A DNA stretch of 64,000 bases from an uncultured Bacilli bacterium (lineage in GTDB: Bacteria > Bacillota_I > Bacilli_A > RF39 > UBA660). A model generated the notes under the pieces. That model was not told where the DNA came from, did no database searches, and saw nothing but the letters and a program-made list of their open reading frames with translations. The DNA is taken from positions 72,589 through 136,588 of the forward strand of contig CALVJR010000002.1 in the NCBI GenBank assembly GCA_944332295.1, written 5' to 3'. The translations under genes and the position numbers were made by a program. Below, piece after piece: positions 669-55,742 of the stretch (within the stretch, counting starts at the first letter, position 1; each line of letters opens with the position of its first letter).

Positions 669-1547
669 ATGAGAAAAGTTATTTCTTTTGATAAAGAGTT
701 AGAATTTAAGACTATGATAGGTGAGATTACTTCTATTTCTTTAGATCAAAATTTATTGTTTGAAGATGATAGTACTGTTTCTGGTGAATTGATTGTTTCT
801 GGTAAATATAAATTAACAGCGGCATCTAGATTAGAAGAGGATTTTTCATTTCATTTACCTATGGAAATTGTTCTTACAGAACGACTAGATTCTGAAACGA
901 GAAATGTTAATATTGAAGATTTTAGATATGAAGTAGAAGATAATGACATTTTACTTTGTCATATTGATTTATTAGTTGAAGGGGTAGAAATTATTGATGA
1001 TGTAGAGAGTGATTGTGAGGATATTAGGGAAAGTTCAGATACTGTTTCTATAGAAGCTACTGATGATAATCCGTCTGTTGAAGAAATTAAGACAGTACAA
1101 ACATCTGATATTGCTGCTCCAATAGATATTTCTACTTCTCCTGAGATAGTTTCACCAAGACAAGAGGTAGTATCTAATGACTCTGCTAATTTTTCTAATG
1201 CTTTAGATAAGCCTGTTGATGTAGATGTTAATGTTAACGTTAATACTAATTCTAACTCTAACATTAATTCTAATATTAATACTATTGATTCTACTGTTGA
1301 AGTTGATAATACTGTTGTTAATGATAGTGATGATGTACATGATGGGGTAGGGTCATTATTCTCTTCCTTTAAGGATAGTGATGAGACTTTTGCTACTTAT
1401 TCTGTATATATTTTCCGAGCCAATGATACTATAGAAATGATTATGGATAAATATCAAGTTACAAAAGAAGAATTGGAGAATTATAATGATTTATCTACAT
1501 TAACTATCGGTTCTAAAGTAATTATTCCAACGCAAATTCATGAGTGA
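669..1547 (+). CDS. SpoVID-like sporulation protein with C-terminal LysM domain and an internal Asn-rich (VN/SN) repeat
   Basis: Strong RBS (AGGAGGG). The N-terminal region resembles the SpoVID N-domain. The C-terminal ~45 aa (YSVYIFRANDTIEMI...LTIGSKVIIP) is LysM-like. A CotS/YsxE-like gene follows, as in the B. subtilis spoVID-ysxE operon. Confidence 0.5.
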   Translation: MRKVISFDKELEFKTMIGEITSISLDQNLLFEDDSTVSGELIVSGKYKLTAASRLEEDFSFHLPMEIVLTERLDSETRNVNIEDFRYEVEDNDILLCHIDLLVEGVEIIDDVESDCEDIRESSDTVSIEATDDNPSVEEIKTVQTSDIAAPIDISTSPEIVSPRQEVVSNDSANFSNALDKPVDVDVNVNVNTNSNSNINSNINTIDSTVEVDNTVVNDSDDVHDGVGSLFSSFKDSDETFATYSVYIFRANDTIEMIMDKYQVTKEELENYNDLSTLTIGSKVIIPTQIHE

Positions 1548-9265: not shown

Positions 9266-10042
9266 ATGTCTAAATATAAAGTAGAAATTAGTGGTGTAGA
9301 TACTAGTTATATAGAGGTTCTTAGTAATTCAGAGATGAACGAGTTGTTTCAGGAGATGCAAAATGGTAATTTGGAGGCAAGGACTAAATTAGTTGAAGGT
9401 AATTTGAAGTTGGTTTTATCTATTTTGCAAAGATTTCATCATCGTGTTGAAAATATGGATGATTTATTTCAAATAGGTTGTGTTGGGTTGTTAAAGGCCA
9501 TTGATAATTTTGATTTATCTCATGAAGTAAAGTTTTCAACTTATGCAGTTCCTATGATATTAGGGGAGGTGCGTAGATATTTAAGGGATAATAATAGTGT
9601 GCGTGTTAGTAGATCTTTGCGGGATATTGCGTATAAGTCTTTAAAGTTTAAAGAACAGGTGTATAATCAAACTGGAAAAGAACCATCGATTGAGGAAATT
9701 GCTACACAGTTGGAGGTTAAACCATTTGAAGTTGTTCAGGCTTTGGATTCTTTGCGGGAACCTGTAAGTATGTTTGAACCTATTTATTCTGATGGTGGAG
9801 ATACCATTTATTTGTTTGATCAGTTAGAAGATAAAACTAATAATAGTGATGATGTATCTTTAAAAATGGCTTTAAATGATGCCATTCAACAATTGGAAGA
9901 TAGGGAACAACATATTTTGGATGAACGGTTTATTGTTGGAAAGACACAGATGGAAATTGCAGAAGAATTGAATATTAGTCAGGCACAAGTTTCAAGAATT
10001 GAAAAGGGTGCGATTAAACAATTGAAGAAAGTTTTGAAATGA
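9266..10042 (+). CDS. sigG: sporulation sigma factor, SigG/SigF-type (sigma-70 regions 2-4)
   Basis: The N-terminal motif and the region 2.x and 4.2 HTH are consistent with forespore sigma factors. A YlmC/YmxH gene follows, as downstream of sigG in spore formers. Confidence 0.7.
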   Translation: MSKYKVEISGVDTSYIEVLSNSEMNELFQEMQNGNLEARTKLVEGNLKLVLSILQRFHHRVENMDDLFQIGCVGLLKAIDNFDLSHEVKFSTYAVPMILGEVRRYLRDNNSVRVSRSLRDIAYKSLKFKEQVYNQTGKEPSIEEIATQLEVKPFEVVQALDSLREPVSMFEPIYSDGGDTIYLFDQLEDKTNNSDDVSLKMALNDAIQQLEDREQHILDERFIVGKTQMEIAEELNISQAQVSRIEKGAIKQLKKVLK

Positions 10043-10069
10043 GTTGCATATATTTTATTAGGTGGTAGA

Positions 10070-10300
10070 ATGCGTTTGTCAGAGCTTCAAGGTAAAAACA
10101 TTGTCAGTGTTGTAGATGGAAGAAATATTGGTAATATTATTGATGTTAATATTATGATGGATGGACGTATTGAGTCTTTAATTATAGAAAGAGGAAAATC
10201 TATTTTTAGTTTTAATAGAGATGGGGATACAAAAATTTTATGGAAGGATATTACTAAAATAGGGGAAGATGTTATTTTGGTAAATGTTAATATGAAATGA
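10070..10300 (+). CDS. YlmC/YmxH-family sporulation protein (PRC-barrel-like)
   Basis: 76 aa, MRLSELQGKNIVSVVDGRNIGNI...; family signature. Confidence 0.7.
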   Translation: MRLSELQGKNIVSVVDGRNIGNIIDVNIMMDGRIESLIIERGKSIFSFNRDGDTKILWKDITKIGEDVILVNVNMK

Positions 10301-11022
10301 AAATTGCTAAGAAGATAGGGGGAGTTTTTCTTTTTTCTATTCTCATTTCTTTTTTTTGTGTTTCATTATTGGGGGAAAAGGTAAATCCTATTTTGTCAAA
10401 TTATTTAAATCTGGAAGTAGAGAGGATAACTTCGAATGTTATTGATTCTACAGTAAATGATGTTTTAGCACAGGGCTTAACACAAGAATTGTTTATTGTT
10501 TCCAAAAATAGCAATGATGAGATTGAAATGATTGATTATAATTCTAAGGAAGTTAATGTTTTATTATCTGATATTAATCAAAGGATTTATTTAAAACTGA
10601 AAAAATTAGAAGAAGGAAATGTGAAGGATTTTGATTTATCTTCTTCTTTATTAGGTTCTGGTTTTCGAAGTGTTAAAAATGGAATAGTCTGTGAAATACC
10701 AATTGGATCTTTGACAAATAATGGCTTTTTAAATAATCTAGGTCCTGTTATTCCTATTAAGATGTCTTTTTTAGGTCAGGTTAATAGTAGTTTAAGAACA
10801 AAAGTTACTAGTTACGGAATTAATAATTTATATTTAGAAGTATATGTTGATGTAGAAGTGAAAGAGCGTATATCTTTGCCTAAATCTTCTAAGGATGTTA
10901 CAATTCATGTAGAAGCACCTTTAAGTATTAAGATCATTTCTGGTAGTGTTCCAGATTATTATGGTGGGATTGTTGGAAAAAATTCTGAGACAGTTTTTTT
11001 AGAAGAATATAATTTGTATTGA
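10297..11022 (+). CDS. YunB-like sporulation membrane protein
   Basis: N-terminal TM, size and synteny after sigG-ylmC; the homology is recalled from memory, not verified. Confidence 0.4.
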   Translation: MKIAKKIGGVFLFSILISFFCVSLLGEKVNPILSNYLNLEVERITSNVIDSTVNDVLAQGLTQELFIVSKNSNDEIEMIDYNSKEVNVLLSDINQRIYLKLKKLEEGNVKDFDLSSSLLGSGFRSVKNGIVCEIPIGSLTNNGFLNNLGPVIPIKMSFLGQVNSSLRTKVTSYGINNLYLEVYVDVEVKERISLPKSSKDVTIHVEAPLSIKIISGSVPDYYGGIVGKNSETVFLEEYNLY

Positions 11023-13120: not shown

Positions 13121-13999
13121 ATGAAAAATAAAATTAGATATTATTATAATTTTAATGATTTTAGTCTTACTAGAATTAAAGATTGCTATTATTTTAGATA
13201 TCAAAATATACTTTATTCATTTGAAAGGATAGAGAATATTGAGTATTTTCAAGTAATACTTTCTATTCTTAAGTCAATTCCTAGTTCACGGTTTTTTAAG
13301 GTTGTTCCTAATATTTATAATGATGACTTTTGTACTATTAATAATCAGTCTTATGCTTTATTTATGCATAGGTCAAGTGATTTTTCTCTTTATAAAGAAA
13401 TAATTAATTTGCCTATGTTTAATTATCATATACCTAATATTAAAATCTTTCCCTGGGATTTTTTATGGATAAAAAAAATTAATTATTATGAGTATCAAAT
13501 AAAACATATTTTTAATGTTGATACTTCATTAATAATTAATGATTGTTTTTATTATTATGTTGGTATGGCAGAGAATGCAATTTCTTACTTAAAGTATAAT
13601 TCTGCATTTTTTTCTTCTAATTTATGCTTATGTCATAAACGCATTTCAATTAAAGATTTTTTTCATCCACAAAATATTATTGTTGATTGCTATCCTAGAG
13701 ATGTATCTGAGTATATAAAATATTTATTTTTTTCTAATACGTATCAGGGATTTTGTTTTTCTTCTTTTTTTGAATTATTACATTTTTCCTATAATGATTT
13801 TGTATTATTATACGCAAGGCTTCTTTTTCCTTCATATTTTTTTGATATATACGATAATATTGTCAATACACATTCGGATTATTCTGCGTTAAAATCTATA
13901 TTATTACGTGTGGATGAATATAATAACTTTTTACATTATATTTATACTATTATTTGCAAGTTTATTGAAATACCAGAAGTTTTATGGATAAAAAATTAA
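13121..13999 (+). CDS. hypothetical protein, possibly CotS-family spore-coat kinase-like
   Basis: 292 aa, Tyr/Phe/Asn-rich; weak resemblance to CotS-like proteins. Confidence 0.3.
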   Translation: MKNKIRYYYNFNDFSLTRIKDCYYFRYQNILYSFERIENIEYFQVILSILKSIPSSRFFKVVPNIYNDDFCTINNQSYALFMHRSSDFSLYKEIINLPMFNYHIPNIKIFPWDFLWIKKINYYEYQIKHIFNVDTSLIINDCFYYYVGMAENAISYLKYNSAFFSSNLCLCHKRISIKDFFHPQNIIVDCYPRDVSEYIKYLFFSNTYQGFCFSSFFELLHFSYNDFVLLYARLLFPSYFFDIYDNIVNTHSDYSALKSILLRVDEYNNFLHYIYTIICKFIEIPEVLWIKN

Positions 14000-14794: not shown

Positions 14795-14871
14795 GGGCGA
14801 TTAGCTCAGTTGGTTAGAGCACCTGCCTTACAAGCAGGGGGTCACAGGTTCGAGTCCTATATCGCCCACCA
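14795..14871 (+). tRNA. tRNA-Val (anticodon TAC)
   Basis: Cloverleaf, CTTACAA anticodon loop, encoded CCA. Confidence 0.9.
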
Positions 14872-14872
14872 T

Positions 14873-14948
<76 letters not shown>

Positions 14949-14956
14949 TTTTTTTT

Positions 14957-15040
14957 GGAGAGGTAGCGAAGAGGCTAAACGCGACAGACTGTAAATCTGT
15001 TCCTTCGGGTTCAATGGTTCGAATCCATTCCTCTCCACCA
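14957..15040 (+). tRNA. tRNA-Tyr (anticodon GTA), long variable arm
   Basis: CTGTAAA loop, class II variable arm, CCA. Confidence 0.9.
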
Positions 15041-15046
15041 CTGTAT

Positions 15047-15121
15047 TGCCTCGTAGCCAAGTGGTAAGGCATCAGACTTTGACTCTGACATGCGTTAGTT
15101 CGAATCTAACCGAGGCAGCCA
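15047..15121 (+). tRNA. tRNA-Gln (anticodon TTG)
   Basis: U1-A72, CTTTGAC loop, CCA. Confidence 0.85.
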
Positions 15122-15130
15122 TTATTATTT

Positions 15131-15206
15131 GATCTGTTAGCTCAGTCGGTAGAGCATTTGACTTTTAATCAAAGGGTCATGAGTTCGAATCTCATACAGA
15201 TCACCA
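15131..15206 (+). tRNA. tRNA-Lys (anticodon TTT)
   Basis: CTTTTAA loop, CCA. Confidence 0.9.
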
Positions 15207-15209
15207 GTT

Positions 15210-15298
15210 GCCTGAGTGGCGGAATTGGTAGACGCACAGGACTTAAAATCCTGCGAGATTCAACCCTCGTGCCGGTTCAAGTCCGGCCTTAGGCACCA
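15210..15298 (+). tRNA. tRNA-Leu (anticodon TAA), long variable arm
   Basis: CTTAAAA loop, long extra arm, CCA; only a 3-nt spacer after tRNA-Lys. Confidence 0.85.
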
Positions 15299-15308
15299 TT
15301 TTAATAAT

Positions 15309-15337
15309 TACTCATTAGTTACTGATGAGTTTTTTTA
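15309..15337 (+). terminator. rho-independent terminator ending tRNA operon 1
   Basis: Hairpin CTCAT...ATGAG followed by T7. Confidence 0.6.
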
Positions 15338-15366
15338 TAAACTATGCTCTAGATTTTTAAAAAGTG

Positions 15367-15395
15367 TTGACATAGTTAAAATGTTTTGTTATAAT
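15367..15395 (+). promoter_or_regulatory. sigmaA promoter for tRNA operon 2 (TTGACA, 17 bp, TATAAT)
   Basis: Perfect consensus hexamers about 28 bp upstream of tRNA-Ser. Confidence 0.65.
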
Positions 15396-15423
15396 CATTT
15401 TGTCGTCTGGAAAAGACGCATTC

Positions 15424-15516
15424 GGAGGAATACCCAAGTCTGGTTGAAGGGACCGGTCTTGAAAACCGGGAGGTCGTGCGAGCGGCGCAGGGGTTCGAAT
15501 CCCTTTTCCTCCGCCA
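15424..15516 (+). tRNA. tRNA-Ser (anticodon TGA)
   Basis: CTTGAAA loop, long variable arm, CCA. Confidence 0.9.
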
Positions 15517-15522
15517 TTATAT

Positions 15523-15599
<77 letters not shown>

Positions 15600-15603
15600 A
15601 TTT

Positions 15604-15680
15604 GGTCTCATGGTGCAGCTGGTTAACACGTCTGCCTGTCACGCAGAAGATCGCGGGTTCGAGTCCCGTTGAGACCGCCA
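15604..15680 (+). tRNA. tRNA-Asp (anticodon GTC)
   Basis: CTGTCAC loop, CCA. Confidence 0.9.
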
Positions 15681-15683
15681 TAT

Positions 15684-15759
15684 GGCTTCATAGCTCAGTC
15701 GGTAGAGCAAGGGACTGAAAATCCCTGTGTCGCTGGTTCGATTCCCGCTGGAGCCACCA
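15684..15759 (+). tRNA. tRNA-Phe (anticodon GAA)
   Basis: CTGAAAA loop, CCA. Confidence 0.9.
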
Positions 15760-15800
15760 TTTTGTTAATAACTTAGTTTTATATAAATTGGTTACGTACT

Positions 15801-15877
15801 GCGCTCGTAGCTCAGTTGGATAGAGTGTTTGGCTACGAACCAAAAGGTCAGGGGTTCGAATCCCTTCGAGCGCACCA
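15801..15877 (+). tRNA. tRNA-Arg (anticodon ACG)
   Basis: CTACGAA loop, CCA. Confidence 0.9.
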
Positions 15878-15882
15878 TATTT

Positions 15883-15959
15883 CGGGAAGTGGCTCAACTT
15901 GGTAGAGCACTTGGTTTGGGACCAAGGGGTTGCAGGTTCAAATCCTGTCTTCCCGACCA
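15883..15959 (+). tRNA. tRNA-Pro (anticodon TGG)
   Basis: TTTGGGA loop, CCA. Confidence 0.9.
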
Positions 15960-15970
15960 TTTGATTATAG

Positions 15971-15995
15971 ACGTTGATAATTCAACGTTTTTTTG
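15971..15995 (+). terminator. rho-independent terminator ending tRNA operon 2
   Basis: ACGTTGA-TAAT-TCAACGT hairpin plus T7. Confidence 0.7.
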
Positions 15996-16071
15996 TGCTC
16001 TAATGTGTTTATGGTGTAATTTTGAATATTTTAGATTTATTTGTACTATGTGCTATAGCTTATATTTAAAA

Positions 16072-16120
16072 AAATAAATATTAATAATAGTTAATAAAAT
16101 AAATATTAATAATAGTTAAT
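16072..16120. repeat. two tandem copies (25-bp period) of AAATAAATATTAATAATAGTTAAT
   Basis: Exact 24-nt unit at 16072-16095 and 16097-16120, between the tRNA terminator and the 3' end of the endonuclease-like gene. Confidence 0.8.
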
Positions 16121-16130
16121 ATTTATTTAT

Positions 16131-16895
16131 TTATAAACGATAATATAACATTGAGATATTTTCTTTTTTTATTTCAAAGTTAGTCCCATGATCATAAGTT
16201 TGTCCGCATTTTTTGCCATTTCGATATATTCCAATATTAAATACAATTTTTATTTCTCCTTTTTCTATTAATGATAGAAATGTGCTAAAGTCTTTAATTT
16301 TATAGAAGGTTATATTTGTATATCGAAAATAAGTTGTACTGTTTTTTTTCTTTTTTTCAGCTTCAATAAATGCTAAATATTTCATTTTGGCATCTAATTT
16401 TTCTTGTAATGTTTTAAAATTCCAAAAACAGTTTTTTTCTATAAGATTATAATGATTGTCTAAAATTACTAGATATACTTTTTGATAAAAATAATCTATT
16501 TCTAGCTTCATAAAATAGCTATTATTTATTTTTGTTAATTTGTTCGCTGTAATTGTTGCGTAGAAAATTTTATTTTGAGATAAGACTTTATCACTCCATC
16601 CATATTGATCTTTTAAATATTGTGTTCCGAAAATGTATGGTCCATCAAATGTAGCACTAAATAGTGTTATGTTTAATCTACTATTATATTTTAAGCTTGT
16701 TTTAATTTCTATTCCATTATAGTCTGCAATTGGAAAGTTTTCTCTTTCTTTCCCAATTATATTCTCAAATGTAATTCCAACGTTACCTTTTCCATTCGAT
16801 GTTCCTTCTATCCAATTAAGATTTTTGATTTCTGTAAATTTTAGTGCGAATTCTTCTATATTTTGTTCCATATTTTGCCTCCTCATATATATCAT
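16131..16895 (-). CDS. MvaI/BcnI-family Type IIP restriction endonuclease-like protein (254 aa), with no adjacent methyltransferase
   Basis: The segment PIADYNGIEIKTSLKYNSRLNITLF fits the D-x4-E-x-K catalytic motif and the following SNLTLF-type block as I recall it from BcnI/MvaI. The size (~250 aa) fits this monomeric family. Confidence 0.45.
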   Translation of the reverse strand: MIYMRRQNMEQNIEEFALKFTEIKNLNWIEGTSNGKGNVGITFENIIGKERENFPIADYNGIEIKTSLKYNSRLNITLFSATFDGPYIFGTQYLKDQYGWSDKVLSQNKIFYATITANKLTKINNSYFMKLEIDYFYQKVYLVILDNHYNLIEKNCFWNFKTLQEKLDAKMKYLAFIEAEKKKKNSTTYFRYTNITFYKIKDFSTFLSLIEKGEIKIVFNIGIYRNGKKCGQTYDHGTNFEIKKENISMLYYRL

Positions 16896-17034
16896 TATAG
16901 AAAAAATAGGATGTTCACATGAAAATTAATCTAAATAGTAATTTTATGTTTATGCTAAAAATATATATTTTAAATAAAATATAATTTTGTTTTATATAAT
17001 CAAAAGTATCATATACTTTAATAGGTGATTTCTT

Positions 17035-18093
17035 TTGAAAAAATTTTTTCTTTTTTTAACTTTTTTTCTTTTTTTTCTACCATTCACTGTTGCTGCAGAT
17101 TCAGCTAAATCTACTATTGTAATGGATTTAGATACTGGAAGAATTTTATATGAGAAAAATGCGGAACAGAGGAGATTAATAGCATCAATTACAAAAATTA
17201 TGACGGCGATTGTTGCTATTGAAGAAGGAGATTTAACAGAAAAAATTACTGTTGGTGAAGAAGTCCTTTCTATGTATGGGACTAATATCTATGTAGAAGT
17301 AGGAGAAAAAATGAAACTTCGAGATTTATTATATGGTTTACTTCTTCGGAGTGGAAATGATGCTTCGGTTGTGATTGCTAAAGCTGTTGCAGGTAGTGAA
17401 GAAAAGTTTGTAGATATGATGAATCAGAAAGCACAAGAAATAGGTATGAAAAATACGACTTTTAAGAATCCACATGGTTTAGATGAGGAGTCCGAAAATT
17501 ATTCTACAGCTTATGACATGGCATTACTTTCTAAATATGCATATAAAAATAAAACTTATCGCAATATAGTTTCTACTGATAAGTATGAAGTTTCTACTGG
17601 TAAAAAAACATATCTTTGGTATAATCGTAATAAATTGTTGACAACTTATGAATATTGTACGGGTGGCAAAAATGGTTATACTCCAAGAGCAGGAAAAACC
17701 TTAGTTACAACAGCTTCGAAAAATGGACTTAATTTAACTATTGTTACTTTATCTGATGGAGATATATATAATAATCATCTTGAATTGTATGAAAATATGT
17801 TTTCACAGTATCATCGCTATAAAATAATTGATAAAAATAGTTTTTCTATTGATAAACAATTTGTAGATGAAGAAGTATACCTTAAAGATTCTTTTTATTA
17901 TCCTCTTACTCTGAATGAAATAGATAATATAAAGACAATTGTTCATTTTTTTGAGGACTCTGCTATTGATGAGATTGGTAATATCGAAATCTTTTTAAAT
18001 GATCAAAAGATAGGGGAAGTTCTAATTTATTCCAAATTAAAAAGGAAAGATCAATTTTCTTTCCTAACCTGGTTAAAAGAATTATTTTCTTGA
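17035..18093 (+). CDS. D-alanyl-D-alanine carboxypeptidase (S11 family, DacB/DacF-like) with signal peptide; TTG start
   Basis: SxxK motif (ASITKIMT), SGN motif (RSGNDA) and KTG motif (GKTL). Confidence 0.75.
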   Translation: MKKFFLFLTFFLFFLPFTVAADSAKSTIVMDLDTGRILYEKNAEQRRLIASITKIMTAIVAIEEGDLTEKITVGEEVLSMYGTNIYVEVGEKMKLRDLLYGLLLRSGNDASVVIAKAVAGSEEKFVDMMNQKAQEIGMKNTTFKNPHGLDEESENYSTAYDMALLSKYAYKNKTYRNIVSTDKYEVSTGKKTYLWYNRNKLLTTYEYCTGGKNGYTPRAGKTLVTTASKNGLNLTIVTLSDGDIYNNHLELYENMFSQYHRYKIIDKNSFSIDKQFVDEEVYLKDSFYYPLTLNEIDNIKTIVHFFEDSAIDEIGNIEIFLNDQKIGEVLIYSKLKRKDQFSFLTWLKELFS

Positions 18094-30506: not shown

Positions 30507-31082
30507 ATGAATACAAAGAAAACAGTAAAGAAGAAACTAGTACTTAAAAAAAGTGTTAAATCATTTATGACCAGAGCGCTTATTACAGTAATTATATTTT
30601 TAGTAGGTATGATACTCATAAAGAAGGATAATAATATTAAGAATACTATATTGGAGAATGTGTATGATAAGAATTTTGAGTTTACTAAAATAAAAAATAT
30701 ATACCAAAAATATTTTGGTAATATTTTATCTGTTGATCAATTGGCTGTTAAAGAACAGGCTGTTTTTCAAGAGACTTTATCTTATAAAAAGGCTCATACA
30801 TATTTAGATGGTGTGAAGTTAACCGTGGATCAAAATTATATGGTTCCTGTGCTTGAGAGTGGTATTGTTATTTTTTTAGGTGAGAAAGAAGGGTATGGTA
30901 ATACGGTTGTTATAGAGCAGGTGGATGGTGTAGATGTGTATTATTCCAATATTTCGACTGATGGTATAAAACTTTATGATTATGTAGAAAAAGGGACGTT
31001 GTTAGGTGAGGCAGAAAATAAGAAACTTTATTTAGTTTTTCAAAAAGATGGGAAGTTTTTAAATTATAAAGACTATATTTAG
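30507..31082 (+). CDS. membrane-anchored M23/LytM-domain protein, SpoIVFA-like
   Basis: N-terminal TM, C-terminal M23-like fold region, and synteny with the downstream M50 protease as in spoIVFA-spoIVFB. Confidence 0.45.
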   Translation: MNTKKTVKKKLVLKKSVKSFMTRALITVIIFLVGMILIKKDNNIKNTILENVYDKNFEFTKIKNIYQKYFGNILSVDQLAVKEQAVFQETLSYKKAHTYLDGVKLTVDQNYMVPVLESGIVIFLGEKEGYGNTVVIEQVDGVDVYYSNISTDGIKLYDYVEKGTLLGEAENKKLYLVFQKDGKFLNYKDYI

Positions 31083-31101
31083 TTATATTGAAGTTCATCC
31101 T

Positions 31102-31815
31102 TTGTTTTATTTGCTTGCTTTTTTTGCAGTTATTACGGCTTCCTTTTTTTCTTTTTGTGTTATTACTTTTTTAATTGTTATTCATGAAATTGGACATTTT
31201 CTTATGGCCTATTTATTAGGAGGAAAGATTTATAAGATATTAATTTATCCCTTGGGGGGAATTTCAAAGTTTTCTACTTCTTATAATATTTCATTATTTA
31301 AAGAATTTATTATTTTACTATTTGGACCGTTATTTCAGATTTTGGGATGGCTCTTACTAATTCATTTATTTCCTGAAAAAGAAGTCTTAATCTCTACTTA
31401 TCATTATGGAATTTTGTTTTTTAATTTATTACCAATTTATCCTTTGGATGGTGGAAAATTATTATGTTTAGTTTTTCATACTATTTTTTCTTATAAAAAA
31501 GCTTTTTATTTTACTTTTTGTGCTGGTTATTTGTTATTACTTTGTTTTTTTATTTTTATAGTTTTTTCATTTTCATTTAATATTCTTTTTTTATCTGTTT
31601 TTTTACTTATTAAACTTATGAAAGAGTATCAGCAAATTCCTTATTTTTATGAGAAATTTTTATTAGAGAGATATTTAAATCATTATTATTTTAAGAAGAG
31701 TAAATTGATTCGGGATTCTGATAAATTTTGTCGAGGGTATCGTCATTTAATTAAAGAAGGGGATTTTTATTATCTTGAAGATGAATATTTAGAAAAAAAG
31801 TACAAAAATTGTTGA
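31102..31815 (+). CDS. M50 site-2 protease, SpoIVFB-like (no CBS domain)
   Basis: HEIGH zinc motif in a TM helix and the NLLPIYPLDGG motif. Confidence 0.6.
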   Translation: MFYLLAFFAVITASFFSFCVITFLIVIHEIGHFLMAYLLGGKIYKILIYPLGGISKFSTSYNISLFKEFIILLFGPLFQILGWLLLIHLFPEKEVLISTYHYGILFFNLLPIYPLDGGKLLCLVFHTIFSYKKAFYFTFCAGYLLLLCFFIFIVFSFSFNILFLSVFLLIKLMKEYQQIPYFYEKFLLERYLNHYYFKKSKLIRDSDKFCRGYRHLIKEGDFYYLEDEYLEKKYKNC

Positions 31816-45339: not shown

Positions 45340-45413
45340 GGGGCTTTAGCCAAGTGGTAAGGCGTGGGTCTGCAACACCCTGATCACCGGTTCAAATCCG
45401 GTAGGCCCCTCCA
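45340..45413 (+). tRNA. tRNA-Cys (anticodon GCA)
   Basis: Cloverleaf, CTGCAAC loop, discriminator U, CCA. Confidence 0.85.
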
Positions 45414-45414
45414 T

Positions 45415-45489
45415 GCGGATGTAGTTTAGTGGTTAGAATACGGCCTTGCCAAGGCTGTGACGGGGATTCGATTTCCCTCATCCGCTCCA
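45415..45489 (+). tRNA. tRNA-Gly (anticodon GCC)
   Basis: TTGCCAA loop, CCA; 1-nt spacer after tRNA-Cys. Confidence 0.85.
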
Positions 45490-45528
45490 TAAGGTAAAAT
45501 CGTCGCACCAATGTGACGTTAATGATTA

Positions 45529-45556
45529 AATCAATCTGAAAAGATTGATTTTTTTG
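45529..45556 (+). terminator. rho-independent terminator after tRNA-Cys/tRNA-Gly
   Basis: AATCAATCT-GAAA-AGATTGATT hairpin plus T6. Confidence 0.7.
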
Positions 45557-45587
45557 TGCGTTATTGCAAAGAAAGGTGTGATGTGAT

Positions 45588-45860
45588 ATGATTAAAATAA
45601 TTAAAAAGAAAATCAATATGAGTGATGAACTCAAAACCAAAATTAATTGGTCTTGCAAATTTAATAACAGACCCTACCAGATTATTGAGGGTCACCTAAG
45701 AATTGTGGAACATACAAATCTAGCGTATGTTGAGCCACACAAAGTAATTATTGGAGAAACACTATATTTATTCTTCAATGAACAAAAACATTTTTATATT
45801 GGGAATTTAAAGAAGAAAATCCCTATCGCTGATTTATCAGAGTACATAGCAAGGCATTAA
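45588..45860 (+). CDS. small protein A (90 aa); paralogue of 50527..50817, and each precedes a large serine recombinase
   Basis: Shared block ...GHL-I-(E/D)(H/N)TN(L/I)-(Y/I)-EPH(K/R)(V/I)I... between the two small proteins. Confidence 0.5.
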   Translation: MIKIIKKKINMSDELKTKINWSCKFNNRPYQIIEGHLRIVEHTNLAYVEPHKVIIGETLYLFFNEQKHFYIGNLKKKIPIADLSEYIARH

Positions 45861-45928
45861 TTAATTGAGAGTTTATATACTCCCACAATATTGGTTTATT
45901 TTGTCGTGTAAATAAATTAATATGTTAG

Positions 45929-47833
<1,905 letters not shown>

Positions 47834-47836
47834 ATT

Positions 47837-48190
47837 ATGGAATTAAAATATACAAAAACTGGTGATTATGAATTACCAAATTTAACTTTAAATGATAATA
47901 AAAAAGGAACAATTAATAAGTATGGAATGTTAAGGCTTGATTATTTAAAGCAACATAAAAAAGCACTTTATATCACACTTTTAATGAAAGATGAACTTAC
48001 TAATCATCTTGTTTCAGTAAGTAAAGATGCAGAAAATTTATTAAATAATATGATGGAAAGTTATAAAAAATCAGATGAAAAACTATCTGAAAAAAGTAAA
48101 GAAATTAATCAACTTGAATGGGTAAAATTGATGAATAATTATAAAAATATGGCTGAGGAAATAATTTTAAAGGAGTTAATATATGTATGA
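47837..48190 (+). CDS. TnpV-like transposon protein (117 aa)
   Basis: Tightly coupled downstream of the recombinase as in Tn4451. Pattern YTKTGDYELPNL...KYGMLRLDYLKQH...LEWVKLMNN resembles the TnpV family as I recall it. Confidence 0.45.
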   Translation: MELKYTKTGDYELPNLTLNDNKKGTINKYGMLRLDYLKQHKKALYITLLMKDELTNHLVSVSKDAENLLNNMMESYKKSDEKLSEKSKEINQLEWVKLMNNYKNMAEEIILKELIYV

Positions 48191-48285
48191 TGTTGTCTAT
48201 AAGCAAGCACTGAATTTGTACTCCCGTACAAATTCTATTATGGGAATTCCCATACCCTTAAATTTTAGAAAGGAGACCTTAAATT

Positions 48286-48657
48286 ATGAGAATAAGAAAT
48301 AATAAAGTTAATGTATTTTTAAGTGATGATGAAAAATTTATTTTAAAAAGAGATTCTTCAAAACTAAAATTATCTCAATCTGAATATATTAGAAATTTAA
48401 TTATAGGATATGAGATTAAAATTCCAGAAGTCAAAGAAGAACAAAAGTCTAAAAAAGATGAATATATTATAGAGAATATTGCCAAATCATTAGAAGAAAA
48501 TATTGAATGCTTAATTAAAGTAAAAAATAAATTTCATTATCTTGGATATTTTGAAGATGAACGAGCAATCGGAGCTAAAATTGAATATTTAAAATTGCAA
48601 AATAGCACATTAAAAAAATATATTCCTATTGAAAATGATAAAGACAATGCCAACTAA
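48286..48657 (+). CDS. ribbon-helix-helix protein (MobC-like)
   Basis: N-terminal motif VFLSDDEKFILKRDSSKLKLSQSEYIRNLI, typical of MobC-type relaxosome accessory proteins. Confidence 0.4.
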   Translation: MRIRNNKVNVFLSDDEKFILKRDSSKLKLSQSEYIRNLIIGYEIKIPEVKEEQKSKKDEYIIENIAKSLEENIECLIKVKNKFHYLGYFEDERAIGAKIEYLKLQNSTLKKYIPIENDKDNAN

Positions 48658-50270
48658 ACATTGTCTTTTAATAATAATTTATGATTATCAAAGTGATAAA
48701 ACTTATTACATATTTCATTTATTTTTTCATTATGTGTAGCAATTATTAATGTTTTATCTTTAAAGTGTTTTAATATAAAATCCACTACAATTTCTTCCGT
48801 ATGTTTATCTAAATTAGATGTAGGTTCATCTAAAATATAAACATCTTTTCCCATTAGATAACTTCTTAAAATATTTATTCTTCTTTTTTGTCCAGTTGAA
48901 AGCTTTAATCCTTTTTCGCCAACTATTGTATATATTCCATCTTCAAACATTAGAATTTCATCTAGTTCTAATTCTTTTAAATAATTTATTATTTTTTCAT
49001 CTGAAATATTCTTATCTAAACATAAATTTTCTTTTATAGTCATATTAAATAATTCTATTTCTTGACTTACAACACCTATGTCAAGTCTATAATCTCTCAT
49101 ATTATTTTCATCTATTTTAGCCTGTCCTTTATAGATAGTTATATTTCCTAAAATCAAGTTTATTATAGATGTTTTGCCTTGACCAGATTTCCCAGTTATT
49201 GAAATTTTATCTTTGTTTTTTATTATCATATTATCAACTTTAATATTAAAATTAGATTCTTTATATTTTAAATCTATATTTGATAATTCTATTTTATTAA
49301 AATTAGTTAATAACTCTCTTTCATCCAATTTACTAAATAATTGAACACATTTTTTCTTTAATGCTTTTAATTCAAAACCACTAACTATTGTTCCAGACAA
49401 TTCATCAAATATAAATCCCATTTCTAAATAAATAGATATATAAAATGTAATTATTCCTAGTGTATCAATTCCATTAGATAAATCTACAACTGCTTTTATA
49501 ATTGCTAATGCAAAAGGTATCACTATTAAAATATTTCTTATAAGTTCTTCTAATGAATAGCATTTAACATACTTATTTTGCTTTTTATAACATTCTTTTC
49601 CTTCTTTTGATACAATTTTTTCAAAATATTTGTTATCGTTCAATGCTTTGACAGTTCTAATATTACTAATAAAATCTTGATATACAGATGAATACTCATA
49701 TTCTTTATCATACAATTCTTCAACGTGTTTATTAGATTTTTTTAATATATATACACTTATCATAACACATAAAATACTTAATACTAATGATACTAAGAAT
49801 AAAATTTTCGATTGTTGAAATACAGTAAAAAAGAAAAATCCAAAAGATAATAATATTCCTATGTATTCTGCACTAAGAATCTTTTTAACTAATTCAGATA
49901 TCTTTTCTATTATATTTTCTAAATATCCCGTTTGATACTTAGATAAAGTTTCTACTGGCACTTTTGTTAATTTCTTGTAATATTCTAAATATTGAACATT
50001 AGAATAATCATATAAATAATTATCCATAACTTTTCTTTCTAAATATAATACAAAACATCTAACTGATTTAGAAGCAATAAATATTGAAGCAACAATTATT
50101 GCTTTTTCAACAGTAAAAGGCATTGTTAAAAAAAGAGCAAAAGTATAAGGAATAACGTAGTAAATAAAATCTAAAAAAGCCTCAATAAACAAGCATAAAA
50201 AAACTTTTTTTCTGTCTAATAATCCAAATATAAAATTAATGTTGTTTTTTTTCATCTTAATCCTCACCAC
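48654..50270 (-). CDS. ABC exporter, fused permease (6 TM) plus ATPase, 538 aa
   Basis: Walker A GKSGQGKTS, signature LSTGQKRR, Walker B ILDEPTSNLD; TM domain N-terminal. Confidence 0.75.
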   Translation of the reverse strand: MVRIKMKKNNINFIFGLLDRKKVFLCLFIEAFLDFIYYVIPYTFALFLTMPFTVEKAIIVASIFIASKSVRCFVLYLERKVMDNYLYDYSNVQYLEYYKKLTKVPVETLSKYQTGYLENIIEKISELVKKILSAEYIGILLSFGFFFFTVFQQSKILFLVSLVLSILCVMISVYILKKSNKHVEELYDKEYEYSSVYQDFISNIRTVKALNDNKYFEKIVSKEGKECYKKQNKYVKCYSLEELIRNILIVIPFALAIIKAVVDLSNGIDTLGIITFYISIYLEMGFIFDELSGTIVSGFELKALKKKCVQLFSKLDERELLTNFNKIELSNIDLKYKESNFNIKVDNMIIKNKDKISITGKSGQGKTSIINLILGNITIYKGQAKIDENNMRDYRLDIGVVSQEIELFNMTIKENLCLDKNISDEKIINYLKELELDEILMFEDGIYTIVGEKGLKLSTGQKRRINILRSYLMGKDVYILDEPTSNLDKHTEEIVVDFILKHFKDKTLIIATHNEKINEICNKFYHFDNHKLLLKDNV

Positions 50271-50526
50271 ATAGTATTTTCTTACAAGTAAATTATACTA
50301 TATTTTGACATTTTTTTCTATACTACCTTGAAAATATCTAGGAAAATGATATAATTGATTCATCAGAGAGATTTAATCAATCTTGGGAGTATAATTTTCT
50401 CATACGTGTATAGTTTAGGCTCCATTGAGGTTGAAAGTCGCACATTTGGCGATTTCTATATAAAGAAAAGTTCATAGTATTTGATACTATGGACTTTTTT
50501 CATGCTCAAAGGAGGGATGAATATTT

Positions 50527-50817
50527 ATGAAAACAGTCATAACAGAATTACCTTTTCCTTGTGAAATTAAAAACAAAATTAAAATGAAAGTTAGTACAGG
50601 AAATTTGGAAATTAATTTTTTGTCGGGACATCTTATCAAAATCGATAATACCAATATCAGTATAGAAGAACCGCATCGAATTATTGTAAAGAAAGATAAT
50701 ATGATATTACTTGCTATGCTTTATAATAATGAAGATAAAATATATTTACCAAATAATAATATCATCATTACTTTAACCAAATACATTTCCATTCTAAACT
50801 CTATAAATAAAATTTAA
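50527..50817 (+). CDS. small protein B (96 aa), paralogue of 45588..45860
   Basis: See small protein A; RBS AAAGGAGGGATGAATATTT ATG. Confidence 0.5.
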   Translation: MKTVITELPFPCEIKNKIKMKVSTGNLEINFLSGHLIKIDNTNISIEEPHRIIVKKDNMILLAMLYNNEDKIYLPNNNIIITLTKYISILNSINKI

Positions 50818-50987
50818 AAAAATTTTTGGGGGTATATTTTTATTTAATAGTTTAATTAATGGTTTATTTTAACCATTTGCTTAATAATTTAAACATTTTT
50901 GTAAAATTCAGTTCGACTATTTTTCCTACTAAAATTCCTATAAAATTCCCTACTGACTTTTCGATTGTCAAGTTTTATAATTAAGTA

Positions 50988-51007
50988 AGGTAGACAAATT
51001 TCTACCT
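50988..51007. repeat. perfect palindrome AGGTAGA-CAAATT-TCTACCT upstream of recombinase 2
   Basis: 7-bp arms. Same AGGT...ACCT arm ends as the 45932-45955 palindrome before recombinase 1, but not followed by a T run. Confidence 0.6.
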
Positions 51008-51055
51008 AATAATGATTAGGACTTAGTCTTTATATAATTTTTAGTTATTGTTTGA

Positions 51056-51087
51056 AACACAAGGAAAATTACTCCCTTGTGTTTTTT
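51056..51087 (+). terminator. hairpin AACACAAGG...CCTTGTGTT plus T6 immediately upstream of recombinase 2
   Basis: Read directly. Confidence 0.55.
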
Positions 51088-51115
51088 CGTGTGCAAAGGA
51101 GTTGGTAAAAAATAA

Positions 51116-52858
<1,743 letters not shown>

Positions 52859-55741: not shown

Positions 55742-55742
55742 A

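What the first reader, a model, noticed from the sequence alone, without database searches (positions are those of the whole stretch)
16072..16895. Solitary MvaI/BcnI-like restriction endonuclease gene, with no methyltransferase, wedged behind a 12-tRNA array next to a 25-bp tandem repeat
The 254-aa minus-strand protein carries IADYNGIEIK (D-x4-E-x-K) followed by SRLNITLF. This matches my recollection of the catalytic core of the monomeric MutH-related Type IIP enzymes MvaI (CCWGG) and BcnI (CCSGG). No DNA methyltransferase is encoded anywhere in the window, and its neighbours (tRNA operon terminator, DD-carboxypeptidase) are core genes. An exact tandem duplication of AAATAAATATTAATAATAGTTAAT lies between the tRNA terminator and the gene's 3' end, which looks like an insertion scar. 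Either the cognate methylase is unlinked, the sites are avoided or rare in this AT-rich genome, or the nuclease has been repurposed.
Basis: partly seen in the sequence, partly recalled or inferred. Interest (0 to 1): 0.55.

Follow-up and report, generated by a model that had tools for sequence, protein, structure and literature searches.

The report
Order-wide methylase-less MvaI-type nuclease gene
The gene is a genuine, intact relative of the restriction enzyme MvaI, but it is not a recent insertion: a whole group of uncultured gut bacteria has inherited it vertically beside the proline tRNA gene, never with a protecting methylase nearby, so how these cells tolerate it is an open and testable question.

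Summary
A 246-aa gene (16131-16871, minus strand; 254 aa as the longest ORF) matches Pfam MvaI_BcnI over its full length (E=3.6e-41). Its predicted structure overlays the MvaI-DNA complex (TM 0.91). All four MvaI active-site residues are present. No DNA methyltransferase lies anywhere in the 64 kb, and the 12 tRNAs and the exact 24-nt duplication are real.

The "wedged in / insertion scar" reading is not supported.
- Orthologues occupy the same slot in dozens of species, most likely of the order RF39.
- They diverge in step with their flanking genes (r=0.90, equal dS) and are under purifying selection (dN/dS about 0.2).
- The gene was present in 17 of 17 contigs sampled through the neighbouring gene.
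- In 65 of 78 loci it lies tail-to-tail with tRNA-Pro(UGG), whatever lies upstream.
- None of about 90 loci has a methyltransferase within 10 kb, whereas plasmid relatives carry the classic controller plus SPPY methylase.
- The duplication is species-specific.

CCWGG sites are common (28 in the window) but depleted across the lineage (O/E 0.73).

Best guess (about 0.4): a permanently chromosomal CCWGG-type nuclease, with host DNA protected in trans. The rivals are a modification-dependent nuclease or a domesticated repair or sporulation nuclease. I class it as a new variant of a known kind.

The parts
16131..16871 (-). Coding sequence of the 246-aa MvaI-clade endonuclease (stop codon included)
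   Evidence: ORF. PF15515 E=3.6e-41. R.MvaI E=1.3e-36. AF2 pLDDT 93 and TM 0.91 to 2oaa. The exact 246-aa protein is found in 47 blocks of the metagenome index.
16872..16899 (-). Translation and transcription signals: AGGAGG at 16878-16883, 6 nt before the ATG at 16871, and TATAAT at 16894-16899. The in-frame ATG at 16895 that gives the 254-aa ORF lies inside the -10 box.
   Evidence: Read directly from the sequence. The simple promoter scan reported no -35/-10 pair directly upstream of the gene (16872-17034), so the -35 is weak.
16701..16766 (-). Codons of the active site: E36 (16764-16766), D50 (16722-16724), E55 (16707-16709), K57 (16701-16703)
   Evidence: They align with MvaI Glu36/Asp50/Glu55/Lys57. 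They are invariant in 83 of 86 family members. The 3 exceptions are dead tandem paralogues.
16182..16196 (-). Codons of the Y226-D227-H228-G229-T230 loop, equivalent to the MvaI H223-D224-H225 loop that reads the CC/GG pairs in the major groove
   Evidence: Gap-free alignment to MvaI. Contacts taken from PMC1874612. Family frequencies: H43/Y35, D76/N10, H61/R21.
16072..16120 (.). Exact 24-nt tandem duplication (period 25) in the AT-rich 3' spacer
   Evidence: Fixed in the 9 other strains aligned (L001-L007, L009, L010), but not duplicated in sister species L022/L023.
16120..16134 (.). (TATT)n / (AAAT)n microsatellite overlapping the stop codon
   Evidence: TRF. The strains differ in the number of AAAT units between the stop codon and the 25-bp repeat (a range of three units in the alignment).
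15969..15997 (+). Intrinsic terminator of the tRNA operon (9-bp stem plus T-run). On the nuclease strand it reads as an A-run plus hairpin without a T-run.
   Evidence: and the sequence.
15883..15959 (+). tRNA-Pro(UGG), convergent with the nuclease gene. It is the one neighbour conserved across the family.
   Evidence: It is the first downstream feature in 65 of 78 related loci.
14795..15959 (+). 12-tRNA array (Val Thr Tyr Gln Lys Leu Ser Met Asp Phe Arg Pro)
   Evidence: The same array is found in L022, L059 and other loci.
17035..18093 (+). Divergently transcribed D-Ala-D-Ala carboxypeptidase (Peptidase_S11). It is the upstream neighbour in the window's clade.
   Evidence: It was used as a nuclease-independent probe, and the nuclease was present in 17 of 17 places.

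Best explanation
SHOWN:
- The gene encodes an intact MvaI-type PD-(D/E)XK endonuclease of 246 aa, with a two-lobe MvaI fold and the active site E36/D50/E55/K57.
- It is a fixed, vertically inherited chromosomal gene of a large group of uncultured, small-genome, roughly 28%-GC gut Bacilli, most likely order RF39.
- It lies tail-to-tail with tRNA-Pro(UGG), is under purifying selection, and never has a DNA methyltransferase or controller protein nearby.
- In an NJ tree without bootstrap, all 86 such chromosomal genes form one clade. MvaI and three plasmid-borne members fall outside it, and two of those three have an annotated methylase next door.

INFERRED from MvaI and BcnI biochemistry:
- It works as a monomer with one active site.
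- The recognition lobe reads a CC-W-GG-like pentanucleotide asymmetrically through the conserved (H/Y)-D-(H/R)-G-T loop.
- Two metal ions bound by D50/E55 cut one strand after CC. The enzyme must then rebind in the opposite orientation to cut the other strand.
- In this protein the residue that reads the central base pair (MvaI R209) is Asn. This may slow second-strand cleavage and make the enzyme nickase-like.

COMMITTED GUESS:
- It is a permanent, chromosomally anchored restriction-type nuclease aimed at CCWGG-like sites.
- The host's own sites (about one per 2.4 kb) are protected in trans by an unlinked, equally lineage-fixed modification enzyme, i.e. a split R-M system.
- The 27% lineage-wide CCWGG deficit would be the footprint of imperfect protection.
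For: Family, fold and active site:
-.

Vertical inheritance and fixation:
- Synteny.
- dS 0.50 against 0.44-0.72 for neighbours, and dN/dS 0.20.
- r=0.90 with flanking genes over 253 species pairs.
- GC3 the same as neighbours.
- 17 of 17 places sampled through the neighbouring gene.
- 345 species-representative genomes carry a relative.

No methyltransferase in cis:
-.
- Plasmid relatives have an SPPY-motif protein next door (annotated as a methylase in C. perfringens and L. lactis, as hypothetical in Macrococcoides) plus a small upstream ORF that is an annotated HTH regulator only in L. lactis.

Single clade:
-.

CCWGG as the site:
- The CC-reading loop is retained, and R209->K and T68->T/S are conservative changes.
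- CCWGG O/E is 0.73 (z=-6.9), the 4th lowest of 509 5-mers, while GGWCC is 1.18, GCWGC 0.98, CGWCG 0.92 and CCSGG 0.89.
- The deficit is the same in all four recognition-loop subgroups, 0.68-0.75.
- There is no CTWGG excess, so this is not a deamination signature.

Expression signals:
-.

Nickase precedent:
- BcnI H219N/Q.
Against: - No methyltransferase was found, and the rest of the genome could not be searched.
- Split Type II systems are rare (Ershova 2012). I know of none kept vertically across an order.
- MvaI D207 and R230 are replaced (T/S/C/N/V and E/D), and several contact positions vary between orthologues. That is awkward for a nuclease that must stay matched to an unlinked methylase.
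- There is no nuclease-negative control for the CCWGG deficit. Other sites (GATC 0.53, CASTG 0.64, CATG 0.73) are depleted as well, so the deficit may come from other, mobile R-M systems.
- About 25 relatives have a conserved Spo0A-box-like promoter, and base-excision-repair genes recur as neighbours. Both point to a regulated host function rather than constitutive defence.
Confidence: 0.4

Rival explanations
1. A domesticated host nuclease. The MvaI fold would have been recruited, as MutH was from a Sau3AI-like ancestor, for a housekeeping job. Candidates are latent strand nicking in a repair pathway (MutH-, Vsr- or EndoMS-like) or a Spo0A-controlled nuclease of stationary phase or sporulation. 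Activity would be held in check by partner proteins or timing, not by methylation.
For: - Conservation is order-wide, syntenic and vertical, with no presence/absence variation. That is typical of housekeeping genes, not defence genes.
- It is retained in 1.4-Mb streamlined genomes.
- Base-excision-repair genes lie within 3 genes in four independent contexts: MutY plus an ExoIII fusion plus NUDIX; ExoIII; a UDG-family gene; Nth/RecU.
- In about 25 species a perfect TTCGACA sits 20-21 nt upstream of the -10. This is the reverse complement of the 0A box TGTCGAA. There are 15 exact copies here out of only 43 in 1.17 Mb.
- The window locus sits among sporulation genes.
- The Asn at the R209 position parallels the BcnI nickase mutants.
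Against: - The protein is far closer to MvaI (TM 0.91) than to MutH (TM 0.35-0.38).
- DNA-contact residues vary between orthologues, which is unexpected for a fixed repair signal.
- The window's own clade lacks the 0A-box motif.
- The repair-neighbour association is post hoc, and those genes are on the opposite strand.
- The CCWGG deficit is not predicted.
Confidence: 0.25
2. A modification-dependent (Type IV / IIM-like) defence nuclease. It would cut only DNA that carries a foreign modification, for example m5C or m4C in CCWGG-like sites made by phage or plasmid methylases, so it needs no methylase of its own.
For: - It is consistently solitary in about 90 loci.
- MvaI itself nicks m5C-modified BcnI sites (abstract of PMC3001055).
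- MvaI D207, whose carboxylate clashes with N4-methyl, is replaced by small or hydrophobic T/S/C/V, which could make room for a methyl group.
- Free variation of contact residues is tolerable when no methylase has to keep pace.
Against: - There is no similarity to known modification-dependent families; all strong hits are Type II enzymes.
- The CCWGG deficit in host DNA is not predicted.
- Such enzymes are usually patchy accessory genes, not syntenic across an order.
Confidence: 0.2
3. A selfish, homing-type or island-borne nuclease gene that targets the flank of tRNA-Pro. This would explain why tRNA-Pro is the constant neighbour and why a partial tRNA-Pro copy lies in the spacer.
For: - tRNA-Pro(UGG) is the first downstream feature in 65 of 78 loci, despite 20 or more different upstream contexts.
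- An inverted partial tRNA-Pro copy lies in the spacer in 31-45 of 62 loci.
- Integrase elements do insert into this tRNA array in some strains.
Against: - The nuclease co-diverges with its flanks, and no species pair has an unexpectedly similar nuclease.
- dS equals that of the neighbours.
- No integrase or transposase travels with it.
- The tRNA fragment is inverted and internal (positions about 30-54), not an att-type direct repeat of the 3' end.
- The integrase elements sit beyond tRNA-Arg, not next to the nuclease.
Confidence: 0.05
4. One reading: a recently inserted orphan R gene, or a decaying remnant of an R-M system that lost its methylase, with the tandem repeat as the insertion scar.
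For: - It lies on the minus strand in a region where most genes are on the plus strand.
- Local GC is slightly low at 24%.
- A tandem duplication is adjacent.
Against: - The ORF is intact and the catalytic residues are invariant in 83 of 86 members.
- dN/dS is about 0.13-0.27.
- GC3 is 0.162, the same as the neighbours.
- Orthologues sit in the same slot down to 35% identity.
- The duplication is younger than the gene.
- No methylase remnant is detectable.
Confidence: 0.03

Closest known systems
R.MvaI (Type IIP, CC^WGG; PDB 2oa9/2oaa)
   Same: - 31% identity over the full length, E=1.3e-36.
- The predicted structure overlays the DNA-bound form (TM 0.91, rmsd 2.0 A).
- The active site E36/D50/E55/K57 is identical.
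- The H-D-H-G-T recognition loop is kept as Y-D-H-G-T.
- T68, Y213, K159 and K205 are identical or conservatively replaced.
   Different: - No M.MvaI-type methylase is adjacent.
- D207->V, R209->N and R230->E in this protein (T/S, K and E/D in most of the clade).
- It is chromosomal, syntenic and vertically inherited across hundreds of species instead of being part of a mobile R-M pair.
Plasmid-borne MvaI/BcnI-family R-M systems (C. perfringens pCPCPI18-6_1, L. lactis, Macrococcoides caseolyticum)
   Same: Same Pfam family, 29-33% identity, same length.
   Different: - Each has a small ORF just upstream (an annotated HTH regulator only in L. lactis) and an SPPY-motif protein next to the nuclease gene. 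That protein is annotated as a methylase in C. perfringens and L. lactis and as hypothetical in Macrococcoides.
- They sit on mobilisable plasmids.
- They fall outside the chromosomal clade in the NJ tree.
- Their SPPY-motif proteins find nothing in the window or in 101 related loci.
R.BcnI (CC^SGG)
   Same: - Same fold (TM 0.73) and the same monomeric one-site mechanism.
- BcnI H219N/Q mutants become strand-specific nickases. This is a precedent for what Asn at the central-base-pair reader could do here.
   Different: - Sequence similarity is only marginal (E=0.012).
- CCSGG is not depleted in the carrier genomes (0.89).
MutH (GATC nickase of methyl-directed mismatch repair)
   Same: - A related two-lobe PD-(D/E)XK fold.
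- A solitary, vertically inherited, chromosomal nuclease that relies on an unlinked orphan methylase. It is the best-known example of a restriction-type nuclease turned housekeeping gene.
   Different: - The structural match is only remote (TM 0.35-0.38, E about 0.06-0.1).
- The catalytic spacing differs.
- There is no evidence here for a Dam-like methylase or a MutL/MutS partner.
Solitary and 'separated' restriction endonucleases (Ershova et al. 2012, PMC3488263)
   Same: A Type II-like R gene without a linked M gene. That study predicted distant methylases for 57 of 272 solitary genes and left 116 unexplained.
   Different: - The paper never mentions MvaI or BcnI (0 occurrences).
- As far as the passages read show, its solitary R genes were related to R genes of annotated, linked R-M systems or explained by recent rearrangement. 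It does not describe an order-wide syntenic clade anchored at a tRNA gene.
Sau3AI / UbaLAI (monomeric Type IIE enzymes with a non-catalytic effector domain)
   Same: In L066, L078 and L095 a catalytically dead paralogue lies immediately upstream of the live gene. This resembles the dead C-terminal MutH-like domain of Sau3AI.
   Different: - Here there are two separate genes rather than a fusion, and only in a sub-lineage.
- The window has a single copy.

Membership tests
MvaI/BcnI restriction endonuclease family (Pfam PF15515) | Profile match above the curated threshold over the whole domain | tested here: met
   142.1 bits against a cutoff of 25, E=3.6e-41, profile positions 3-227 of 227. PADLOC REase_II E=5e-37.
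MvaI/BcnI restriction endonuclease family (Pfam PF15515) | PD-(D/E)XK active site Glu36, Asp50, Glu55-x-Lys57 (MvaI numbering) | tested here: met
   E36, D50, E55 and K57 align without gaps. They are invariant in 83 of 86 clade members.
MvaI/BcnI restriction endonuclease family (Pfam PF15515) | Two-lobe MutH-like fold (catalytic lobe plus recognition lobe) | tested here: met
   AF2 model with pLDDT 93.2 and pTM 0.87. Foldseek: 2oaa TM 0.91, BcnI 0.73.
MvaI/BcnI restriction endonuclease family (Pfam PF15515) | Base-reading residues of MvaI for CCWGG (H223, D224, H225, D207, R209, R230, T68) | tested here: inconclusive
   First half-site loop kept (Y/H-D-H/R). T68 kept. R209->K in 63 of 86 members (Asn in the window's protein). 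D207->T/S/C/N/V and R230->E/D. These could be alternative readouts of the same G:C pairs, or a changed specificity.
MvaI/BcnI restriction endonuclease family (Pfam PF15515) | Monomeric enzyme that cuts CC^WGG or CC^SGG | not testable with these tools
   Needs purified protein. There is only indirect support: a CCWGG-specific deficit in carrier genomes.
Type II restriction-modification system | Cognate DNA methyltransferase encoded next to the nuclease | tested here: not met
   None in the 64-kb window. None within +-10 kb in 91 related loci.
Type II restriction-modification system | Cognate methyltransferase somewhere in the same genome (separated system) | not testable with these tools
Type II restriction-modification system | Mobile, patchy distribution with signs of horizontal transfer | tested here: not met
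   Co-divergence with flanks r=0.90. Equal dS. Native GC3. Present in 17 of 17 independently sampled places.
MutH family (mismatch-repair nickase) | Close sequence or structural similarity to MutH | tested here: not met
   Foldseek E 0.06-0.1, TM 0.35-0.38. No MutH hit by sequence.
MutH family (mismatch-repair nickase) | Works with an orphan Dam-type methylase and MutL/MutS | not testable with these tools
   None of these genes is in the window, and the rest of the genome is not available.
Modification-dependent (Type IV / IIM) nucleases | Membership of a known modification-dependent family, or a modified-base binding domain | tested here: not met
   Only Type II models hit. It is a single domain with no extra reader domain.
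Modification-dependent (Type IV / IIM) nucleases | Cleavage requires modified DNA | not testable with these tools
   Needs biochemistry.
Free-standing homing endonuclease genes | Sporadic distribution and a phylogeny incongruent with the host locus | tested here: not met
   The largest positive residual in nuclease identity is 0.14.

The most novel reading that the evidence does not exclude
A Type II restriction endonuclease has been permanently domesticated by a whole bacterial order (RF39-type gut Bacilli) and works with no methyltransferase at all. It would serve as a host nuclease, for example a Spo0A-controlled nuclease of stationary phase or sporulation, or a MutH/EndoMS-like repair nickase. 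It would be physically and perhaps regulatorily coupled to the tRNA-Pro gene through convergent transcription and an inverted tRNA-Pro fragment.
Probability: 0.3. Interest if true: 0.85.

Novelty: new variant of a known kind. Interest (0 to 1): 0.6.

Why it matters
Restriction enzymes are textbook mobile, patchy genes that depend on a methylase. An intact MvaI-type nuclease that has stayed fixed at one chromosomal slot through the divergence of hundreds of species, in genomes of only about 1.4 Mb and never with a methylase nearby, points to one of two things.

- It is an unusually stable split R-M system. That would be a rare case of a core, vertically inherited restriction barrier shaping gene flow in an abundant but uncultured gut lineage.
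- It is a second MutH-like example of a restriction nuclease recruited to a host function.

Either answer is directly testable with a 246-aa protein and existing stool metagenomes. Natural variation at the central-base-pair reader (K/N/R) and the dead tandem paralogues could also supply natural nickases or effector-regulated variants of a well-studied enzyme scaffold.

Tried and rejected
1. Methylase in the window. Motif regex in six frames, Pfam on ORFs >=120 aa (plus) and tblastn with three cognate-type SPPY MTases found nothing.

2. Methylase near the orthologues. A motif scan of 91 loci gave 4 short hits. The only one next to a nuclease (L096, SPPF) is a spurious ORF across a tRNA array. 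The other three were not examined: L039 and L099 lie in the syntenic gene block, and L058 is a 129-aa ORF 6 kb away.

3. NCBIfam gave no hit, and the source databases give no names for cluster members.

4. 'Sites are rare' is rejected. There are 28 CCWGG and 10 CCSGG sites in the window.

5. A Dcm-type deamination signature is rejected. There is no CTWGG/CCWAG excess and CTAG is 0.94-0.96.

6. The insertion-scar reading of the tandem repeat is rejected by the strain and species alignment.

7. The homing or island origin is rejected by co-divergence.

8. Linking recognition-loop variants to different avoided sites gave no differential signal. The CCWGG deficit is the same in all subgroups.

9. 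A Spo0A box upstream of the window's own gene is absent. It is found only in other sub-lineages.

10. Literature searches for PF15515, MvaI-like solitary genes, and RF39 plus restriction-modification found no description of this clade.

11. Phage collection: one distant, unannotated hit.

Full report
**1. What is at the coordinates**

The minus-strand ORF 16131..16895 (254 aa) exists. The upstream ATG at 16895 lies inside a perfect TATAAT (16894-16899). The ATG at 16871 is preceded by AGGAGG with a 6-nt spacer. The real product is therefore almost certainly the 246-aa protein MEQNIEEF.... That exact protein has been called on contigs in 47 blocks of the metagenome index.

The other parts of the observation also hold:
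- The 12-tRNA array (14795-15959) ends in tRNA-Pro(UGG).
- The tRNA-operon terminator lies at 15969-15990.
- The 24-mer AAATAAATATTAATAATAGTTAAT occurs exactly twice, at 16072 and 16097.
- The peptides IADYNGIEIK and SRLNITLF are present.

**2. Family membership**

- Pfam MvaI_BcnI matches end to end (E=3.6e-41, 142 bits against a cutoff of 25).
- The best solved relative is R.MvaI (E=1.3e-36). BcnI is marginal at 0.012.
- PADLOC returns only Type II restriction models. NCBIfam returns nothing.
- An AlphaFold model built on 33 homologues is confident (pLDDT 93.2, pTM 0.87).
- The model superimposes on the MvaI-DNA complex 2oaa with TM 0.91 and rmsd 2.0 A over 246 columns. BcnI gives TM 0.73 and MutH only 0.35-0.38.
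- The MvaI paper names Glu36, Asp50, Glu55 and Lys57 as the active site (PMC1874612). The gap-free alignment puts E36, D50, E55 and K57 of the 246-aa protein on them.

**3. No methyltransferase in the window**

- No [DNS]PP[YFWH] or PCQ motif occurs in six-frame segments of 100 aa or more.
- Pfam on ORFs of 120 aa or more shows no DNA methyltransferase (plus the precomputed families for the region from about 4 to 27 kb).
- The SPPY-type methylases that accompany plasmid-borne family members find nothing in the window by tblastn at E<=1.
- The window does hold an unrelated mobile element after tRNA-Cys/Gly: two serine recombinases, a NikA-like protein, and GC of 22-26%. It also lacks a methylase.

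**4. The gene is old at this locus**

Homologues of 81% down to 35% identity lie in the same neighbourhood in other species. The order is Peptidase_S11 <- nuclease -> <- tRNA array, then S1, NifU, YutH, YunB and a sigma factor.

Evidence for vertical inheritance:
- Against the closest other species (L022), the nuclease has dS 0.50, while its neighbours have 0.44-0.72. Its dN/dS is 0.20, compared with YutH 0.175, YunB 0.12 and the carboxypeptidase 0.07.
- Over 23 species (253 pairs), nuclease identity tracks the identity of the two flanking genes (Pearson r=0.90). No pair has a nuclease much more similar than its flanks.
- Its GC3 (0.162) matches that of its neighbours.
- I sampled the locus through the neighbouring carboxypeptidase, which is independent of the nuclease. 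The PF15515 gene was found in 10 of 10 contigs of a sister species and in all places of three further species.

Extent and identity of the lineage:
- A scan of one genome per species found relatives in 345 species.
- The best 80 are almost all uncultured gut 'Bacilli/Tenericutes' MAGs from human, rabbit, mouse and chicken.
- One of them, Candidatus Faecimonas gallistercoris, is GTDB order RF39, family CAG-611, with 28.2% GC and 1.4 Mb. The window (28.3% GC) most likely comes from that group.

**5. Always solitary**

Across 91 related loci (+-10 kb), a motif scan found four short candidate ORFs. The only one beside a nuclease is a spurious ORF over a tRNA array. I did not examine the other three. 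Cognate-type methylases find nothing (phmmer E<=10, tblastn E<=1).

The 29-33% identical family members on plasmids of C. perfringens, L. lactis and Macrococcoides are different. Each has an SPPY-motif protein next door, annotated as a methylase in the first two and as hypothetical in the third. Each also has a small upstream ORF, which is an annotated HTH regulator only in L. lactis.

In an NJ tree (no bootstrap, few outgroups), MvaI and these plasmid enzymes fall outside a single clade that holds all 86 chromosomal genes.

**6. The tandem repeat is not a scar**

The nine other strains of this species that I aligned (L001-L007, L009, L010) all carry the duplication. They differ only in the neighbouring (AAAT)n run. 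The sister species, which also have the gene, have a diverged single-copy spacer. The duplication is therefore younger than the gene.

**7. The conserved partner is tRNA-Pro**

In 65 of 78 loci with enough sequence, the first feature after the nuclease stop codon is a convergent tRNA-Pro(UGG), usually 20-150 bp away (median spacer 94 nt). This holds whether the rest of the array has 12 tRNAs, Pro-Arg only, or Pro-Ala. It holds despite 20 or more different upstream neighbours.

The asymmetry is real but should not be over-read, because 13 loci have lost the tRNA neighbour.

There is an unexpected feature. In 31-45 of 62 loci the spacer contains a partial copy of tRNA-Pro itself (positions about 30-54). 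It is inverted relative to the intact gene and sits just before a terminator that is bidirectional in many of the loci. The window's own spacer keeps at most 8 nt of it. I read it as the remnant of a second, convergent tRNA-Pro that is retained as an extended inverted repeat between two convergent transcription units. This is not shown.

**8. What does it cut?**

MvaI's first half-site readers (H223, D224, H225) are kept as H/Y-D-H/R. This loop is the most conserved segment outside the active site. The other contact residues compare as follows:

| MvaI residue | In the clade | In the window's protein |
|---|---|---|
| T68 | kept (T/S) | T69 |
| R209 | Lys in 63 of 86 | Asn |
| D207 | T/S/C/N/V | V |
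| R230 | E/D | E |

These changes could be alternative ways of reading the same G:C pairs, or they could change the specificity. I cannot decide which.

Single substitutions at the equivalent central-pair reader of BcnI (H219N/Q) turn it into a strand-specific nickase (PMC3089477). A nickase-like enzyme is therefore plausible here.

Site statistics give indirect evidence:
- The window has 28 CCWGG sites, against 34.6 expected (not significant).
- In 1.2 Mb pooled from carrier genomes with tRNAs masked, CCWGG is depleted (497 observed, 678 expected, O/E 0.73, z=-6.9). It is the 4th lowest of 509 5-mers.
- Composition-matched GGWCC (1.18), GCWGC (0.98), CGWCG (0.92) and CCSGG (0.89) are not depleted.
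- The deficit is the same in all four recognition-loop subgroups, 0.68-0.75.
- No CTWGG excess accompanies it.
- Sites are still frequent, about one per 2.4 kb. Avoidance alone cannot protect the host.
- There is no nuclease-negative control, and GATC (0.53), CASTG (0.64) and CATG (0.73) are depleted too.

**9. Hints of regulation and of a host role (related loci only)**

- In about 25 species of other sub-lineages, the nuclease promoter has TTCGACA (15 exact copies) placed 20-21 nt upstream of a TATAAT-like -10. Only 43 copies of that heptamer exist in 1.17 Mb. It is the reverse complement of the Spo0A 0A-box core TGTCGAA (PMC3485338).
- From my own knowledge, the 21-22-nt spacing recalls the Spo0A-activated spoIIG and spoIIE promoters. 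Whether Spo0A would activate or repress here cannot be told. The window's clade lacks the motif.
- Base-excision-repair genes lie within three genes of the nuclease in four independent contexts: MutY with an ExoIII fusion and NUDIX; ExoIII; a UDG-family gene; Nth. This is a post hoc observation.
- In L066, L078 and L095 a second copy lies directly upstream with its catalytic residues destroyed (YRSK, FQDK, NEEK). The copy next to tRNA-Pro is intact. This resembles the dead effector domain of Sau3AI.

**10. Verdict**

Firmly supported:
- It is a true, intact MvaI-clade endonuclease.
- It is lineage-fixed, vertically inherited and methylase-less in cis.
- It is anchored at tRNA-Pro.
- It is not an insertion.

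Not resolved: how host DNA is spared. I commit, at about 0.4, to a permanent CCWGG-type restriction nuclease protected in trans by an unlinked methylase, because the CC-reading loop is kept and CCWGG is specifically depleted. The alternatives are:
- a domesticated host nuclease for repair or sporulation (0.25);
- a modification-dependent nuclease (0.2);
- a selfish, tRNA-targeted origin (0.05);
- the recent-orphan reading (0.03).

I found no description of such a clade in the literature searched. I class it as a new variant of a known kind, with interest 0.6.

Noticed in passing
window, whole 64 kb; also pooled loci L011-L101: GATC is the most under-represented palindrome. In the window there are 89 observed against 203 expected (O/E 0.44, z=-8). 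In 1.2 Mb of related genomes O/E is 0.53. CATG (0.73), CASTG (0.64) and GGCC (0.79) are also depleted.
   Followed up: partly
window 45340-56000: An integrated mobile element lies directly after tRNA-Cys/tRNA-Gly. It carries two large serine recombinases (45947-47833, 51116-52858), a NikA-like mobilisation protein (48286-48657), an ABC transporter and a double-HTH regulator. Its GC is 22-26%. It has no methyltransferase.
   Followed up: partly
L021-L099 (62 loci), spacer between nuclease stop and tRNA-Pro; window 15995-16130: An inverted partial copy of tRNA-Pro (positions about 30-54, e.g. TTTGGGACCAAGGGGTTGCAGG; positions 6-48 in L045) lies in the spacer of 31-45 of 62 loci. It sits just before the shared terminator. 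The window keeps at most TAGAGCAC.
   Followed up: partly
L047, L053-L055, L060, L066, L069, L074, L076, L079, L087, L091-L093, L095 and variants, 58-85 nt upstream of the nuclease start: A conserved promoter, TTCGACA-N20/21-TATAAT. The heptamer is the reverse complement of the Spo0A 0A-box core. Fifteen exact copies occur here out of 43 in 1.17 Mb. A second conserved AACATTC element follows the -10. Neither is present upstream of the window's gene.
   Followed up: partly
L066 9273-9998 and 10001-10738; L078 9160-9990 and 9992-10735; L095 570-1382 and 2803-3540: Duplicated nuclease genes: head-to-tail, 2-3 nt apart, in L066 and L078; separated by another ORF in L095. The upstream copy has lost the catalytic residues (YRSK, FQDK, NEEK). 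The copy next to tRNA-Pro keeps EDEK.
   Followed up: partly
L010 5760-7244; L102 754-2238; L106 753-2237: In some strains of this species and its sister species, an element with a 494-aa tyrosine integrase has inserted after tRNA-Arg. It cuts the 12-tRNA array down to Pro-Arg next to the nuclease. This may be how the Pro-Arg-only arrangement of other lineages arose.
   Followed up: partly
L057, L059, L065, L068 (MutY, ExoIII fusion, NUDIX); L051, L067, L088 (ExoIII); L053, L066, L069, L076, L078, L085, L091 (UDG-family); L021 11933-12559 (Nth): Base-excision-repair genes recur within three genes of the nuclease in four otherwise unrelated gene contexts.
   Followed up: partly
L011, L028, L030, L031, L115: Prolyl-tRNA synthetase lies directly upstream of the nuclease on the same strand (72-77 nt gap in L011, L028 and L031). 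This gives ProRS -> nuclease -> <- tRNA-Pro.
   Followed up: no
window 16120-16134 and L001-L010: The (AAAT)n run that overlaps the nuclease stop codon differs in length between strains, by up to three AAAT units, while the rest of the spacer is identical.
   Followed up: yes
window 669-1547, 9266-11022, 13121-13999, 17035-18093, 30507-31815: A roughly 28%-GC genome of probable RF39 affiliation carries a set of sporulation-type genes: a weak, sub-threshold SpoVID-N match (21.6 bits against a cutoff of 27.1), a sigma factor, YunB, YutH, an S11 carboxypeptidase, and M23/M50 peptidases.
   Followed up: no
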